Shown piece by piece: positions 146 through 45,977 of a stretch of DNA of 64,000 nt. Numbering within the stretch: the stretch's first letter is position 1; every line of letters starts with the position of its first letter. The stretch comes from Octopus vulgaris. Lineage: Eukaryota. The translations under genes were made by a program, and so were the position numbers. The notes under the pieces were generated by a model, which made no database searches, was not told the DNA's origin, and saw only the letters and a program-made list of their open reading frames with translations. The stretch is from the NCBI GenBank assembly GCA_951406725.2, contig OX597824.1:52824001-52888000 (forward strand), written 5' to 3'.

Positions 146-184
146 AAGAAAGACCGGTTTCGCGTTTAGCTTTTCAAATTTCTT
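146..184 (-). ncRNA. Minimal hammerhead-like motif (U3/A8 core variant), left arm copy
   Basis: Reverse complement of 3178-3216. Confidence 0.6.
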
Positions 185-300
185 GCGACGTTATGTTTAT
201 CTTGAACAGAGTTATCTTTATGTTTATGTTTAAAAGAGTTCTAAATAAGGGGAGGTAATGAGTGATTTCTTCCGGTGTAAGGGAAATAATCGCTTAAAAA

Positions 301-783
301 TTAAAAAAATTTTTTTCCTTTCCCTTGGTGTGAATTTCTCTGTATCAGTATGTTGGCATGGTTAAGTCTGGGCTTGTACTTTTCAATGAAGAATGTTTCC
401 TTGTTTAGTCTAATTTGTGTTGATGATCCGATAGCACATTGGTAAAATGGAAAGATTAAAAATTGTGGTAGTAGTTGCATTGCGCATTTCTCAATGTGCT
501 CACTAAAAGGTATCATTCTGTATTCTGGGAATGCAATCTGTTGTCGATGCAGTGTGCATGTACGTCTGAGTGAAAGTCCCGTGGATCCCACGTAGTCTTG
601 GTGGCAGCCCGAGCATTTTATGACATAAATTATGTTTTCAGAGGCACAAGTAAAGTTAGACTTGATCTTGAATTTCTGTCCCTCTTTAAAGAGGAATTCT
701 GATCCTTCTAGCAGGTTTGGACATGTTGCACAGTTCGATCTACCACATTTTTTTACTTTTGCATCCGTAATTTCAGAAAACAA
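301..783 (-). pseudogene. Inverted duplicate of the PLE GIY-YIG domain
   Basis: Nearly identical to ORF 2597-3016 but keeps the C-terminus KETFFIEKYKPRLN. Confidence 0.88.
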
Positions 784-946
784 TTTTGCCTTTGTGAGAA
801 TCTTTTTAAGTGATTTAGGTTGTTTGTAGCTTTTAATGATTTGGTGTGTTTAGAATTTCCTTTAATTTGGGGTCCTTATGAAGTATTGGTAAATTCTGGG
901 TGATGATGGTGAAGGCTTCTTTGTTTCTGGGGTTGTATGTAGATAT

Positions 947-3016
947 CTTCAATACTGAAGATGAATCACTAGTCAAGAACAAAAGTGAACACATCCCACA
1001 CAGAGGAAGAAATAAATATCTTGACGAATTCTATAACCACATTGAGAACTTTCCCTACCATACTATACATAAAGAGAAAGTTAACTCAAATTTTAACACT
1101 ACACAATGGAAGGAACTGATAGAACTTCAAAATGATGAGGATATAACCATTAAGGAAGCAGACAAGGGAAATGCAGTTGTAATAATGGATACATCATACT
1201 ATAGAAATCTTGTAATTTCCTTGCTTGATGACGACCTACATTATGAAAAAATTACCAACTACACCCCACAAAAAAATAATGAAAACTCTATCTTCACTAA
1301 TTAAAACCCACGAAAAGGAACTAACAACCAAAGAGATTGGCTTTCTAACAAACTTTAAATGCAAACCTAGCCTTTTCTATGGTCTGCCAAAAATCCATAA
1401 AAGCCAAATTATAAATGAAACCATTAAAAAATCACTAAAGACATACATACACACACCTAACCCGGGGGACCTAAAACTACGACCCATTGTAGCTGGCCCA
1501 ACCTGTGAAAAACACAGACTAAGTCTATTTATGGACATCCTCCTGAAACCCTTCCTTAAACATATCGATAGCCATATCAGAGATGACTTAGATATGTTAA
1601 ACCACCTCCCAAAAAAAGCCAAGGAAGAAACAATCCTGATTTCATTTGATGTAGTTAACCTGTATACCAGTATACCTCATAATTATGGACTAGAGGCAAT
1701 ACAGTTCTGGCAGGACCAATTTCCGGAAGAAATACCAAAAAGGATCAGTAAAGAATTCATTACTAAATCAATTGAATTCATCCTACATAATAACCACTTC
1801 ATGTTTGACAATACATTTTACCATCAAAAATCCGGAATTGCTATGGGTACAAGGGCAGCACCAGTCATTGCGAACCTAACAATGGGCGACATGGAAATAA
1901 TCATTTACCAGGAATCTTTATCAATATTTGGAAACCCCCTTTCTCAATACATAAAAGAGAATTGGAAACGAATCTTAGACGATTGTTTTATACTCTGGAA
2001 TGAAAACACAGATAAACTCCTAAAATTTAAAAACCTATTGAACAGCATAAACCCAAATATACAGTTCACAATGAAATACAACCAAAAGGAGCTCCCGTTC
2101 TTGGATATACTAATTTAAAAAATTAACCTTAAAATAGAAACAGACATTTTTTACAAAGCCACAGACGCCAAACAATACCTTCTTTTTAATTCATGCCACC
2201 CAAGACACACTAAAACAAACATCCCCTTGAACCTTGCAAGAAGGATATGCGCAATAGTGTCAGAACAAAATACCAGGAACTTTAGACTGCAAGGACTCAA
2301 AAACACCCTAATTGACAGACATTACCCAGCTCAACTCATAGAGGGTGGGATCAGACGTGCAACAGAAATCAACATAGAAACTTTAAGAAAAGTTCAACAC
2401 AACAACACACCTTCCCCGAAAATACTACCTTACATATCTACATACAACCCCAGAAACAAAGAAGCCTTCACCATCATCACCCAGAATTTACCAATACTTC
2501 ATAAGGACCCCAAATTAAAGGAAATTCTAAACATACCAAATCATTAAAAGCTACAAACAACCTAAATCACTTAAAAAGATTCTCACAAAGGCAAAATTGT
2601 TTTCTGAAATTACGGATGCAAAAGTAAAAAAATGTGGTAGATCGAACTGTGCAACATGTCCAAACCTGCTAGAAGGATCAGAATTCCTCTTTAAAGAGGG
2701 ACAGAAATTCAAGATCAAATCTAACTTTACTTGTGCCTCTGAAAACATAATTTATGTCATAAAATGCTCGGGCTGCCACCAAGACTACGTGGGATCCACA
2801 GGACTATCACTGAGACGTAGATGCACACTGCATCGACAACAGATTGTATTCCCAGAATACAGAATGATACCTTTTAGTGAGCACATTGAGAAATGCGCAA
2901 AGCAACTACTACCACAATTTTTAATCTTTCCATTTTACCAATGTGCTATCGGATCATCAACACCAATTAGACTAAACAAGGAAACAAGCCCAGACTTAAC
3001 CATGCCAACATACTGA
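947..3016 (+). pseudogene. Frameshifted PLE reverse transcriptase / GIY-YIG endonuclease polyprotein
   Basis: ORF pieces 900-1304 (IKEADKGNAVVIMD), 1225-2118 (RT core), 2227-2547 (thumb), 2597-3016 (GIY-YIG), separated by frameshifts or stops; catalytic motif reads ILDD. Confidence 0.9.
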
Positions 3017-3177
3017 TACAGAGAAATTCACACTAAGGGAAAGGAAAAATTTTTTTTTAAATTTTTAAGCGATTATCTCCCTTACACCGGAAGAAATCAC
3101 TCATTACCTCCCCTTATTTAGAACTCTTTTAAACATAAACATAAAGATAACTCTGTTCAAGATAAACATAACGTCGC

Positions 3178-3216
3178 AAGAAATTTGAAAAGCTAAACGC
3201 GAAACCGGTCTTTCTT
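3178..3216 (+). ncRNA. Minimal type I hammerhead-like motif (U3/A8 core variant) in the PLE 3' terminus
   Basis: AAGAAA-T-TTGAAAA-GC-TAAAC-GC-GAAA-CCGG-TC-TTTCTT; palindromic helix III; helix I needs a 1-nt bulge. Confidence 0.62.
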
Positions 3217-43450: not shown

Positions 43451-43621
43451 AATTTCTTTTTGCTATTATTTTCAAATTTGTTACCAAATGTATGGAACCT
43501 CTATTTTGCAGGATGTAAAGAAAGCAACACTGGCGTATTCAACGGCGAGAAACAAACATAAAAACATAGACCTAACTCATACACATATATATGTGTGTAT
43601 GTATGTAAACATATATATATG

Positions 43622-44793
43622 CAGGCATGAAAGAAGTAAATACATTAAAACATCGTTTTATGTTTATTCTAACATGTAATGGTATATATATATTTTTATC
43701 AACATTTTTATGTTTCAGGTTCTATATGTGACTGTTTAATCATTCCATGTAAAAAATTAAAAAAAACCTTTGGAACTCTCTGAATTTCAAAGAGGCCGCA
43801 ATGTGGGTCATTTTGAAGCTAGACATAAAAATTTGGGATCCCGCTTTCTACAGTTAATAGAGTGATTGAGAGGGGAAGCCATTCACATCACCTCGCCAAG
43901 ACCAACCAGGGCACTCTGACAGGACCGTTCTTTTTGCTAAGAGAAGTGTGAAGGATAATCCTCGCTCCAAGGCCTCTGACATAGCAGAACAAGTTGATGT
44001 CAGTCCCAGAACAGCTGTCATGTATCTCTACAAACTTGGTTACTATGGCAGAGCAACAAGAAGGAAGCCACTACTTCGACCAGCCGACATCAAGCGGAGA
44101 AAAGATTGGGCAGTGAGATGCCACTAGCATTTTGGAACACTCTTATATTCTCTGTCGAGTGTGGGTTTGGAGAATCTGTGATCAAGAATTCTATGTGAAA
44201 AGATTGCAGCCAACAATGAAACACGGCGGCTATTCTGTGATGGTCTGGGGAGCAATTTGGAGCAATAGTTGATAACAGCTGGTGGAGTGTGAGGGAAACT
44301 TAAACTCAGATAAATATGTGTCCATATTGCAAAAAATATTCCTTCTAATCTTCTCCAGTGGTGAAATGATTGAATAAGACTCTTTATTTAAGGAAGATGG
44401 GCTCCTTGTCACACGGCTAAAATGATCTAAGATTTATTGAATAAGATTGGCAAGAAAAAGCGTCTATAGCCAAGCCAGTCATCAGTTATGAACCCTATTG
44501 AACACCTCTGGGAAATAATGGACAGAACACTTCATAAAAAGAACATGAAAGCATCTTCAAATCCAGATATTTTGAGATTACTGCTTGAAACTTGGCAAGA
44601 CATTCCGCTAGAGAATATTCATCTAATCTGTAACAAGCATAATAGGGTCCTGGCACTGAATAATGTAAAGGGCATGTCTACTAAATATTAAATGTTGACA
44701 CTATAACAATTAATAAATAATTTGAATGTATAACTTCAGATTTAAATAAATTCTAATGACTATAAGTGTGTCTATTTACTTCTGTCATGCCTA
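43622..44793 (+). mobile_element. Degenerate Tc1-like transposon with TIRs
   Basis: TIR caggcatgaaagaagtaaata versus tatttacttctgtcatgccta; motifs [30 protein letters not shown]. Confidence 0.85.
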
Positions 44794-44928
44794 TGAATAT
44801 ATGTATTTGTGTGTGTATAGTATATATATATATATATATATATATAGTTCCGTGATGGTAAGATCAACAAAAATAGTACTCCATCTGGTGAAAGATAAAT
44901 ATTATTTCATAAACAATATATGTTTTAT

Positions 44929-45012
44929 GTGCTACTATTAGTTTCATCTACCGAGAACATGCGAAACAGTATTTTTAAACACATCTAATGTGGTAGCGTA
45001 ATCATCAGGCAC
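44929..45012 (-). ncRNA. Type I hammerhead motif with long helix II (left arm of palindrome)
   Basis: Minus strand GTGC-CTGATGA-[about 56 nt including CTACC..GGTAG]-GAAAC-TAATA-GTA-GCAC. Confidence 0.62.
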
Positions 45013-45048
45013 TGCCCACATGGCATAACGACGTATGCCATGTAGAAA

Positions 45049-45132
45049 ATGCCTGATGATTGTTCTAGGACACCAAACGTGTTTAAAAATACTGTTTTGC
45101 ATGCTCTCAGCAGATGAAACTAATAGTAGCGC
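45049..45132 (+). ncRNA. Type I hammerhead motif with long helix II (right arm of palindrome)
   Basis: ATGC-CTGATGA-[56 nt]-GAAAC-TAATA-GTA-GCGC; helix II pairing is poorer than in the left arm. Confidence 0.5.
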
Positions 45133-45977
45133 GTAAAAGCATATACTGTGTTTATTAAATTATATATATATGTTTGAATTTCAGAAGATTATTAAGGAAA
45201 GTTAACCTCGGCGGTATTTAAACAAATTCGCAAGACCATTATACCGGCTCTCTGAATATATCCTGTCAGCTTGCAGCATTTCTACACACACACACACACA
45301 CACACACACACACACACACACAAACGCAAACAAACAAACCGACGCGCACACACTCACACTTGTAGGGCCAGCAAGACTGGTAAACTTGAACCCGTGCAGA
45401 AAAGAAGTCACCAGGTAGATGATTCTATCCGAATTTTCTTGCGAAGAATGACTGTATATGGTGGTTACTGCGGGGTCCAATGTTTTAATGCAACATTGGA
45501 AAACGATCGATGGAGAGTCGAGTGGAATGAAGGTACCGAGGAGGAGATGGAGAAATGAGACGGACAAGGTCTGAAGTACAGAGGCCATTATCATAGGAGT
45601 AGAAAAGAAAACATAATATATTTGTGGATCTGAGAGTATCCGAGTCTATTATACCATGATAATCAGTAGAGTGTAAAAGCTTTGCATGCAATCAAAGTTA
45701 TGTTGTGTGTATAGGGGTGGTGACGCGCATTTGTGTATGGTGATGCACAAATATCAAACTTAAACGTGAATTGAAGCTGAAACCGATTTAGTGTCCCCAC
45801 TCTTTCGAAGCTTCTCCTTTTAGAAATTATATGATATATACAGACATACATATATATATATGTATGTGTGTGTATATATATATATATATATGTGTGTGTG
45901 TATGTATGTATATATGTATGCATGTATGTATATGTGTGCATATATATGTATGTATGTATAATGTATATACGTGAATT

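What the first reader, a model, noticed from the sequence alone, without database searches (positions are those of the whole stretch)
146..45170. Recurring system: PLE termini with diverse HHRs, often as fold-backs at (TA)n
Seen: HHR or HHR-like cores at 146(-), 3178(+), 3394(-), 17638(+), 31230(+, half), 38477(+), 44929(-) and 45049(+), with unrelated flanks. Four fold-backs (31-3332, 15685-15950, 31021-31373, about 44905-45155) sit next to TA tracts. Their arms are diverged, which argues against sequencing chimeras. Inference: several PLE families share a (TA)n-targeted, inversion-prone integration mechanism that seeds the genome with ribozyme-containing hairpins, a possible source of dsRNA (editing substrates, siRNA) inside host introns.
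Basis: partly seen in the sequence, partly recalled or inferred. Interest (0 to 1): 0.72.

Follow-up and report, generated by a model that had tools for sequence, protein, structure and literature searches.

The report
Head-to-head Penelope retrotransposon stubs
Two broken Penelope-type jumping genes, and several short hairpins that are likely end-pieces of their relatives, carry small ribozyme motifs and mostly end in TA repeats in this octopus DNA, an insertion pattern already described for these elements rather than a new system.

Summary
Mostly real, but known. Five of the eight claimed hammerheads stand clear of background, and a sixth is the mirror copy of one of them. The sites at 17638 and 31230 score at chance level.

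The 31-3332 'fold-back' is a 5'-truncated Neptune-type Penelope element (RT, CxxC linker, GIY-YIG) with an inverted 3' copy. The 38477 motif ends a second such element that has no inversion. The 44.9 kb hairpin carries a Hydra-type hammerhead, a one-sided 48-bp tail and TA ends, and sister copies join head-to-head at 11 different breakpoints, which does not fit a MITE. Five of 7 strong sites have (TA)5+ within 150 bases downstream (p about 2e-4).

Inverted copies, tails, (TA)n bias, U3-A8 cores and opposite-strand hammerhead pairs are all in print (PMC8557442, PMC4209133, PMC3846280). This scan has reported the same pattern on other pieces of this genome several times. The window likely lies in a TMEM196-like intron, so dsRNA is plausible, but editing and siRNA are untested, and the full hairpins would mask their ribozymes.

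The parts
947..3331 (+). PLE-1: 5'-truncated Neptune-type Penelope-like element; broken RT and GIY-YIG frame, DKG motif, CX4CxxC linker, 3' UTR; ends at (TA)13
   Evidence: 64% DNA identity to PLE-2
23..946 (-). Inverted copy of the PLE-1 3' part (equals 2434-3340), joined head-to-head; junction lies in an 8-bp palindrome at 941-948; outer end close to the window edge
   Evidence: 890 matches, 14 substitutions, 5 gaps including a 19-bp deletion in the direct copy
3178..3216 (+). Minimal type I hammerhead, U3-A8 core, 6-bp stem I, 2-bp stem II, palindromic stem III, one extra U before the core
   Evidence: 24.5 bits; stem I probability 0.67-0.80 when folded alone
146..184 (-). Same hammerhead in the inverted copy
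3359..3565 (-). 207-bp unit between (TA)13 and (TA)10; type I hammerhead at 3454-3394 with Hydra-like core spacing; small hairpin at its 5' end; not a long fold-back
   Evidence: (25.0 bits)
15681..15949 (.). Fold-back, 94% arms; outward U3-A8 hammerhead core in both arms (15844-15878 +, 15781-15747 -) with a very short stem I; right end at (TA)25.
   Evidence: (20.3 and 15.5 bits; 0 of 60 local shuffles reached either)
15594..15680 (-). 87-bp one-sided extension between the left arm and a (TA)44 tract; candidate tail, family membership untested
16980..17296 (.).
   Evidence: 13.2 and 11.4 bits: background level window-wide
17638..17673 (+). Claimed hammerhead; altered 5' core; background-level score
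   Evidence: 13.8 bits
29611..31015 (+). PLE-3: N-terminal fragment of another Neptune-type frame; abuts the 31 kb fold-back but appears to be a separate repeat
31020..31377 (.). Fold-back, 96% arms, (TA)3 at both ends; right arm holds a hammerhead 3' half (31230-31246); left arm lacks the 28 bases 31212-31239
36281..38609 (+). PLE-2: 5'-truncated Neptune-type element (RT, CX4CxxC linker, GIY-YIG with CCHH), no inverted copy, ends at a TA tract
38477..38517 (+). Minimal type I hammerhead, U3-A8 core, 5-bp stems I and II, one extra A
   Evidence: 27.1 bits
44895..45169 (.). Fold-back, 83% arms; outward twin hammerheads (45012-44929 -, 45050-45131 +) with Hydra-type core and stem III and a 56-nt stem II; right end in (TA)5
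44847..44894 (-). 48-bp one-sided tail of the left arm, followed by (TA)13; the most deeply covered part of the family in other runs
62219..62360 (.). Small fold-back, 82% arms; no significant hammerhead, no TA tract; origin open
63837..63873 (+).
   Evidence: (24.3 bits)
54417..54605 (-). First coding exon of a TMEM196-like host gene; the remaining 131 residues are not encoded in the window, so 1-54416 is likely intron

Best explanation
The window holds two broken Neptune-type Penelope-like retrotransposons with hammerhead motifs at their 3' ends, plus short hairpins that are likely heavily truncated ends of related Neptune- and Hydra-type elements, pasted head-to-head into TA repeats. Shown: the RT/endonuclease frames, the motifs, their outward orientation, the TA ends, the one-sided tail at 44.9 kb and the variable junctions among its sister copies. 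Inferred: the element's endonuclease cuts both strands of an AT-rich or (TA)n target, and reverse transcription starts from both 3' ends at two nearby start sites on the element's RNA. Both cDNAs stop early and are joined at their ends, giving a long-ended and a short-ended arm. The hammerhead lies 30-150 bases from the 3' end, so it is the part most often kept. The stubs then decay. A host transcript would fold them into long duplexes that mask the ribozyme fold.
For: Frames and motifs. Hammerhead excess: 8 vs 0.9. Five sites at 18 bits or more lie in the outward strand of 3,149 bases of arms against 0.065 expected; none of the 10 inward arm strands tested reached 18 (the PLE-1 arms were tested only over their outer 240 bases there). 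TA: 5 of 7 independent strong sites, background 0.106, p=2.3e-4. 44.9 kb family: summed depth falls from about 35,000-49,000 at the tail to 1,200-3,300 at the centre, against about 53 for unique DNA; 7 of 15 joints shown in table 5 and 4 more in table 5c are head-to-head with different breakpoints; 28 and 16 contigs stop at 45171 and run on into TA-rich letters. Both arms share non-majority letters at 2 of 12 paired sites, so one source copy is likely. Its core and stem III match the pattern of 14 of 25 Hydra families in File S2 of PMC8557442. PAc protein cuts and extends both strands and starts at two adjacent sites (PMC11167929). A related element from another genome shows ORF, hammerhead, (TA)10 in the same order (L003).
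Against: No short unit is physically linked to a coding frame here, and 0 of 5 window motifs were found in the published consensus files (line breaks could hide matches). The 31 kb and 17 kb fold-backs show no one-sided tail, and at 31 kb depth is higher near the centre than at the outer ends, unlike a simple 5'-truncation gradient. The 62 kb fold-back has neither motif nor TA. Three of 8 units are not inverted. Only 4 of 7 related loci had a hammerhead, 1 of 7 had a TA tract after it and 0 of 7 an inverted copy, though most contigs are short. TA tracts could be added or expanded at the ends rather than targeted; no empty site was seen. Junction palindromes (3 of 6 at 6 bp or more) do not exceed background of 29%.
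Confidence: 0.72

Rival explanations
1. Same elements, different inversion route: the inverted arm is made by self-priming (fold-back of the cDNA, or of an antisense template as proposed for Adineta), not by priming from both target strands.
For: PMC3846280 reports palindromes at head-to-head junctions and proposes self-priming. The PLE-1 junction sits in an 8-bp palindrome and the 17 kb one in a 10-bp palindrome. Shared derived letters in both 44.9 kb arms fit one template.
Against: A fold-back copy should reproduce the same outer end on both arms, but the 44.9 kb and 15.7 kb units have a one-sided extension of 48 and 87 bases. Junction palindromes are not above background.
Confidence: 0.25
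2. The short units are non-coding riders (retrozyme- or SINE-like RNAs) copied in trans by PLE proteins, not truncated ends of coding elements.
For: No coding sequence adjoins them. Animal retrozymes are argued to derive from PLE terminal repeats (bioRxiv 10.64898/2026.07.22.740005). Earlier scan notes describe such U3-A8 families in this genome.
Against: No tandem hammerhead monomers in the window. The 44.9 kb family thins steadily towards its 5' side with no fixed 5' end in the rows shown.
Confidence: 0.2
3. Some fold-backs are palindromic DNA-transposon MITEs and their hammerhead-like words are chance. Most plausible for 62219-62360, possible for 31020-31377 and 16980-17296.
For: No significant hammerhead in the 62 kb and 31 kb arms, background-level scores at 17 kb; symmetric ends; TA dinucleotide ends at 31 kb.
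Against: Variable junctions, depth gradient and one-sided tail in the 44.9 kb family; intact outward cores at 15.7 and 44.9 kb; the 3.3 kb case is a coding PLE.
Confidence: 0.1
4. The fold-backs are sequencing or assembly chimeras.
Against: Arms differ by 1.5-18% plus indels of up to 28 bases. Contigs of other runs match the right arm and flank with 0-3 differences. Similar junctions recur at other loci in 2-4 runs.
Confidence: 0.03

Closest known systems
C-terminal EN+ Penelope-like elements of the Neptune type (PMC8557442; passages, section 11, supplement part 2 and search rows seen)
   Same: RT then GIY-YIG, DKG motif, CX2-5CxxC linker, CCHH motif, 5' truncation, inverted 5'-truncated copy at the 5' end, hammerhead in the terminal repeat, microsatellite bias
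   Different: No tree was built, so Neptune versus Nematis is not settled; these families were not matched to a named consensus
Hydra-clade PLEs, e.g. Penelope-1_HM, Penelope-13_HM, Hydra-1_Obim (PMC8557442 Files S1, S2)
   Same: (TA)n insertion; core followed by U and U before GAA; 4-bp stem III with 1-nt loop (44.9 kb differs from Penelope-1_HM only at the loop base); Penelope-13_HM is listed with an inverted 5'-truncated copy and a hammerhead on each strand
   Different: Stem II is 56 nt at 44.9 kb and about 67 nt at 17 kb, against roughly 10-25 nt in the table; no Hydra coding frame in the window; not Hydra-1_Obim by the motifs searched
Minimal hammerheads of metazoan PLEs (PMC4209133; parts 1-2 of 4 and passages seen)
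   Same: Type I, short palindromic helix III, U3-A8 core variant, mostly single motifs from truncated PLEs, pairs on opposite strands 100-700 bp apart, low predicted monomer activity
   Different: Each strong motif here carries one extra base or bulge; octopus is not named in that paper's main text
Poseidon PAc of Anolis (PMC11167929; parts 1-2 of 4 seen)
   Same: Two adjacent reverse-transcription starts explain the tail; both strands cut and extended; AT-rich targets; hammerhead not needed for insertion in vitro
   Different: Different clade; the parts I read do not show formation of head-to-head insertions
Adineta vaga Penelope families (PMC3846280; passages seen)
   Same: Head-to-head inverted terminal repeats, optional tail on one of them, solo repeats, small RNAs from the elements
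   Different: TSDs of 8-10 bp visible there, hidden by TA repeats here; authors favour self-priming
Palindromic Harbinger repeat of Xenopus and lizard Penelope as hyper-editing substrates (PMC5625713; passages seen)
   Same: Self-folding repeats and Penelope copies are known ADAR targets; octopus has high hyper-editing and high dsRNA potential
   Different: Octopus repeats were excluded from the repeat-class analysis, so the PLE share there is not reported in the passages seen

Membership tests
EN+ PLE, Neptune type (PLE-1, PLE-2) | PLE reverse transcriptase followed by C-terminal GIY-YIG | tested here: met
   Pfam RVT_1 E 1e-6 (just under cut-off) and 9e-9; GIY-YIG E 3.6e-4 in PLE-2 (just under cut-off); 64 full-length relatives, up to 60% identity; profile covers both elements
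EN+ PLE, Neptune type (PLE-1, PLE-2) | DKG motif, CX2-5CxxC linker, CCHH motif | tested here: met
   DKG in PLE-1; CX4CxxC in both; two Cys inside GIY-YIG and two His after it in both. PLE-2 is truncated before DKG
EN+ PLE, Neptune type (PLE-1, PLE-2) | Placement in the Neptune group by RT phylogeny | not tested
EN+ PLE, Neptune type (PLE-1, PLE-2) | Hammerhead in the 3' terminal repeat | tested here: met
   97-121 bases before the TA end
EN+ PLE, Neptune type (PLE-1, PLE-2) | One-sided 30-40 bp tail | tested here: inconclusive
   The outer end of the PLE-1 inverted arm is 22-30 bases from the window edge
Hydra-clade PLE (short units at 44.9, 3.4, 17, 31 kb) | RT with DKT and endonuclease with CxCX5C linker | not testable with these tools
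Hydra-clade PLE (short units at 44.9, 3.4, 17, 31 kb) | Hydra-type hammerhead core and stem III | tested here: met
   44.9 kb matches the pattern of 14 of 25 families; the other three are partial or decayed resemblances read by eye
Hydra-clade PLE (short units at 44.9, 3.4, 17, 31 kb) | Insertion in (TA)n | tested here: inconclusive
   Met at 44.9 and 3.4 kb; only (TA)3 at 31 kb; absent at 17 kb
Hydra-clade PLE (short units at 44.9, 3.4, 17, 31 kb) | Short stem II as in the published table | tested here: not met
   56 nt and about 67 nt
MITE | Fixed terminal inverted repeats and a fixed internal structure across copies | tested here: not met
   44.9 kb family only: 11 different junctions, depth gradient, one-sided tail. 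31 kb partly tested; 15.7, 17 and 62 kb not tested
MITE | Target-site duplication | tested here: inconclusive
   TA-rich ends hide any duplication; no empty site seen
Non-LTR retrozyme | Tandem monomers each with a type I hammerhead | tested here: not met
   No such tandem
Type I hammerhead ribozyme | Conserved core with three helices | tested here: met
   Five claimed sites plus 15844 and 63840, each but 63840 with one deviation or a very short stem I
Type I hammerhead ribozyme | Rfam hammerhead model match | tested here: not met
   0 matches at gathering score
Type I hammerhead ribozyme | Self-cleavage | not testable with these tools
   Needs in vitro assay

The most novel reading that the evidence does not exclude
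Neptune- and Hydra-type Penelope enzymes routinely prime from both strands of a cut TA repeat at two fixed start sites, and in octopus this has filled introns with self-folding hairpins (six in these 64 kb) that are a main source of the dsRNA behind the animal's extreme A-to-I hyper-editing.
Probability: 0.15. Interest if true: 0.6.

Novelty: new member of a known kind. Interest (0 to 1): 0.2.

Why it matters
As it stands, this is annotation: more families showing a published insertion shape. Two things could lift it. How PLE inversions form is still described as open, and thousands of octopus stubs with two fixed ends and variable centres could discriminate two-ended priming from self-priming. 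If these hairpins carry a large share of octopus hyper-editing, one transposon class would explain part of a well-known cephalopod trait. Neither can be settled from this window, and other reports of this scan hold better material for the first question.

Tried and rejected
No whole genome was held, so the genome-wide co-occurrence test could not be run. Rfam found no hammerhead. A strict descriptor found 0 sites; relaxed ones found 4 and 5. Folding energies of the 9 motif stretches were not better than shuffles (z from -1.7 to +1.3), so folding gives no support. One of the 8 strong scan hits (60077, - strand) lies in what looks like a transposase fragment and is probably chance; I kept it in the 5-of-7 TA count as a miss. 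Linking the 31 kb fold-back to the adjacent PLE-3 frame was rejected: depth drops several-fold at the boundary and family contigs stop near 31,000. Reading the 28-base loss in its left arm as a cleavage scar was not adopted, because a CTT microhomology deletion fits as well. A fixed ADAR signature between arms was not found: A/G 26, C/T 23 of 82 mismatches. Junction palindromes are not enriched. No RNA holder was listed for 30000-38700; this says nothing on expression. Three sequence look-ups and the 'near' look-up in earlier findings returned nothing. The Lunse 2017 paper was not held and is not used. Literature searches; none listed a study of octopus PLE fold-backs or their editing, but most subscription papers are not in the library. 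Only part 2 of 59 of the Craig supplement was read, plus search rows; the preprint's supplements are closed.

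
Full report
Context. The window is AT-rich animal DNA dense in simple repeats. A 63-residue exon at 54605-54417 (-) is 100% identical to proteins named from Octopus bimaculoides and O. vulgaris, a TMEM196-like gene. The remaining 131 residues are not encoded in the window, so everything in the finding likely lies in one intron of over 54 kb transcribed on the minus strand; a 100-base gap at 51233-51332 leaves this unproven.

Hammerheads. Rfam gave nothing. A strict descriptor found none; allowing small deviations found 4 and then 5 sites against 0.1 and 0.65 in shuffles. 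A log-odds scan of both strands gave 8 sites at 20 bits or more, against a mean of 0.9 and a maximum of 3 in 30 shuffles. I designed these scores after seeing the claimed sites, so the margins are somewhat flattered. The 8 sites are 3185(+), 177(-), 3449(-), 15844(+), 38482(+), 45008(-), 63840(+) and 60077(-); the last is probably chance. The sites at 17638 (13.8 bits) and 31230 (3' half only) are at background. Two core types occur: U3-A8 (3185/177, 15844, 38482, 63840) and C3-G8 (3449, 45008/45053). U3-A8 cores, minimal helix III, single motifs from truncated PLEs and opposite-strand pairs 100-700 bp apart are all described in PMC4209133 (parts 1-2 of 4).

Coding elements. 947-3331 and 36281-38609 are 5'-truncated, frame-broken PLEs with RT, a CX4CxxC linker and a GIY-YIG domain with CCHH, 64% identical in DNA and up to 60% identical in protein to 64 database relatives. 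The linker places them in the Neptune type as defined in PMC8557442; no tree was built. Each ends with a hammerhead 97-121 bases before a TA tract. The first has an inverted copy of its last 0.9 kb joined head-to-head (98.5%, 14 substitutions, a 19-bp deletion). The second has none. A third fragment (29.6-31.0 kb) is an N-terminal piece that abuts the 31 kb fold-back but is far more deeply covered and appears separate. Of 7 related loci from metagenomes, 4 had a hammerhead at 18 bits or more, 1 showed ORF, hammerhead and (TA)10 in order, and none had an inverted copy.

Short fold-backs. Outward cores are intact in both arms at 15.7 and 44.9 kb, decayed with different lesions in each arm at 17 kb, half present at 31 kb and absent at 62 kb. 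Five sites at 18 bits or more fall in the outward strand of the 3,149 bases of all arms, against 0.065 expected. Five of 7 independent strong sites have (TA)5 or longer within 150 bases downstream, against a background of 0.106 (p=2.3e-4). The 31 kb unit has only (TA)3 ends; the 17 and 62 kb units have none.

Family evidence for 44.9 kb. Contigs of 4 public runs (3 studies) were laid at 80% likeness. Summed depth in run X1 is 35,000-49,000 over the tail and arm end, 1,200-3,300 at the centre and about 53 in unique flank; the tool warns that this is no copy number. Seven of the 15 joints shown (of 91) and 4 more among the 12 rows of table 5c (of 29) link the antisense arm to the sense arm at different places; sides are short (24-59 letters where given), so some may be misalignments. 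In two runs, 28 and 16 contigs stop at 45171 and continue in TA-rich letters, while the left arm runs 48 bases further before its TA tract. Two ends, variable centres and a 3' to 5' gradient fit a truncated retroelement, not a MITE. Of 12 paired sites among the 40 rows shown (of 106), both arms share a non-majority letter at 2, differ from the majority in different ways at 1, and one arm matches the majority at 9: one source copy, then independent decay. The core and stem III follow the pattern of 14 of 25 Hydra families in File S2 of PMC8557442; that file lists (TA)n preference for nearly all Hydra families including an octopus one, and an inverted 5' copy for Penelope-13_HM. The stem II is longer than in that table (56 nt). 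No published consensus matched the 5 motifs searched.

Mechanism. Shown: structure, orientation, ends. From the literature: purified PAc cuts and extends both strands, prefers AT-rich DNA, starts at two adjacent sites that define the tail, and does not need its hammerhead to insert (PMC11167929, parts 1-2 of 4). Inferred: priming from both target ends gives an antisense left arm and a sense right arm, one long-ended and one short-ended, joined where the two cDNAs stopped. I put this at about 55-60% against 25% for self-priming (PMC3846280); the identity as PLE-derived stubs is about 85% for the hammerhead-bearing units. The two-start reading was prompted by earlier notes of this scan and is supported here by only two one-sided extensions, one of them checked in sister copies.

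dsRNA claim. The whole fold-backs are predicted to fold at -78 to -205 kcal/mol with 74-90% of bases paired, and stem I has probability 0.0 in the 4 tested; at 44.9 and 15.7 kb it is also near 0 in a single arm, whereas the 4 free-standing motifs reach 0.14-0.80. Self-folding repeats and lizard Penelope are known editing substrates and octopus has high hyper-editing (PMC5625713, passages). No RNA data could be examined here, and arm differences show no A/G excess (26 against 23 C/T of 82).

Artefact check. Arm divergence and indels, matching contigs for the right arm and flank in other runs (0-3 differences) and similar junctions at other loci argue against chimeras.

Verdict. Real, ordinary PLE remains. 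The combination of hammerhead, inversion, tail and (TA)n is the published PLE insertion shape, and this scan has described it repeatedly on other pieces of the same genome, including the long stem II. The particular families may be unnamed. Interest 0.2.

Noticed in passing
window 63837-63873 (+): Well-formed minimal U3-A8 hammerhead outside the finding's range, with no inverted partner or TA tract in the remaining 130 bases
   Followed up: partly
window 29100-29330: Unidentified repeat with summed depth up to 126,000 against about 60 for unique DNA in run X1, just upstream of the PLE-3 fragment
   Followed up: no
window 29024-29075: Near-perfect 17-bp hairpin with a short loop, directly before that repeat
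   Followed up: no
window 29611-30716: About 1.1 kb of repeated, partly open, Asn/Gln/His-rich frame upstream of the conserved PLE N-terminus: a long N-terminal extension in a high-copy family
   Followed up: no
window 7762-7867 and 9941-10046: 106-bp, 95% inverted repeat around a non-LTR RT fragment that looks like the R4/Dong type (label recalled, not tested)
   Followed up: no
window 3517-3565: The 5' hairpin of the 3394 unit resembles the 44.9 kb tail in reverse (score 24 against shuffle maximum 23, one of 110 tests); it may be a tail-only inverted stub
   Followed up: partly
window 3441-3454 (-): The stem I and core of the 3394 motif share 14 letters with the printed start of the Naiad_Obim consensus, so a Naiad origin is not excluded
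   Followed up: no
window 46062-48452 (-): 797-codon open frame with a strong RT match (Pfam RVT_1 E 1e-30): a comparatively intact LINE
   Followed up: no
window 40228-41519 and 43740-44785: Tc1/mariner remnants; the first has 49-bp terminal inverted repeats and a transposase match
   Followed up: no
window 54417-54605 (-): First coding exon of a TMEM196-like gene, implying a first coding intron of over 54 kb
   Followed up: yes
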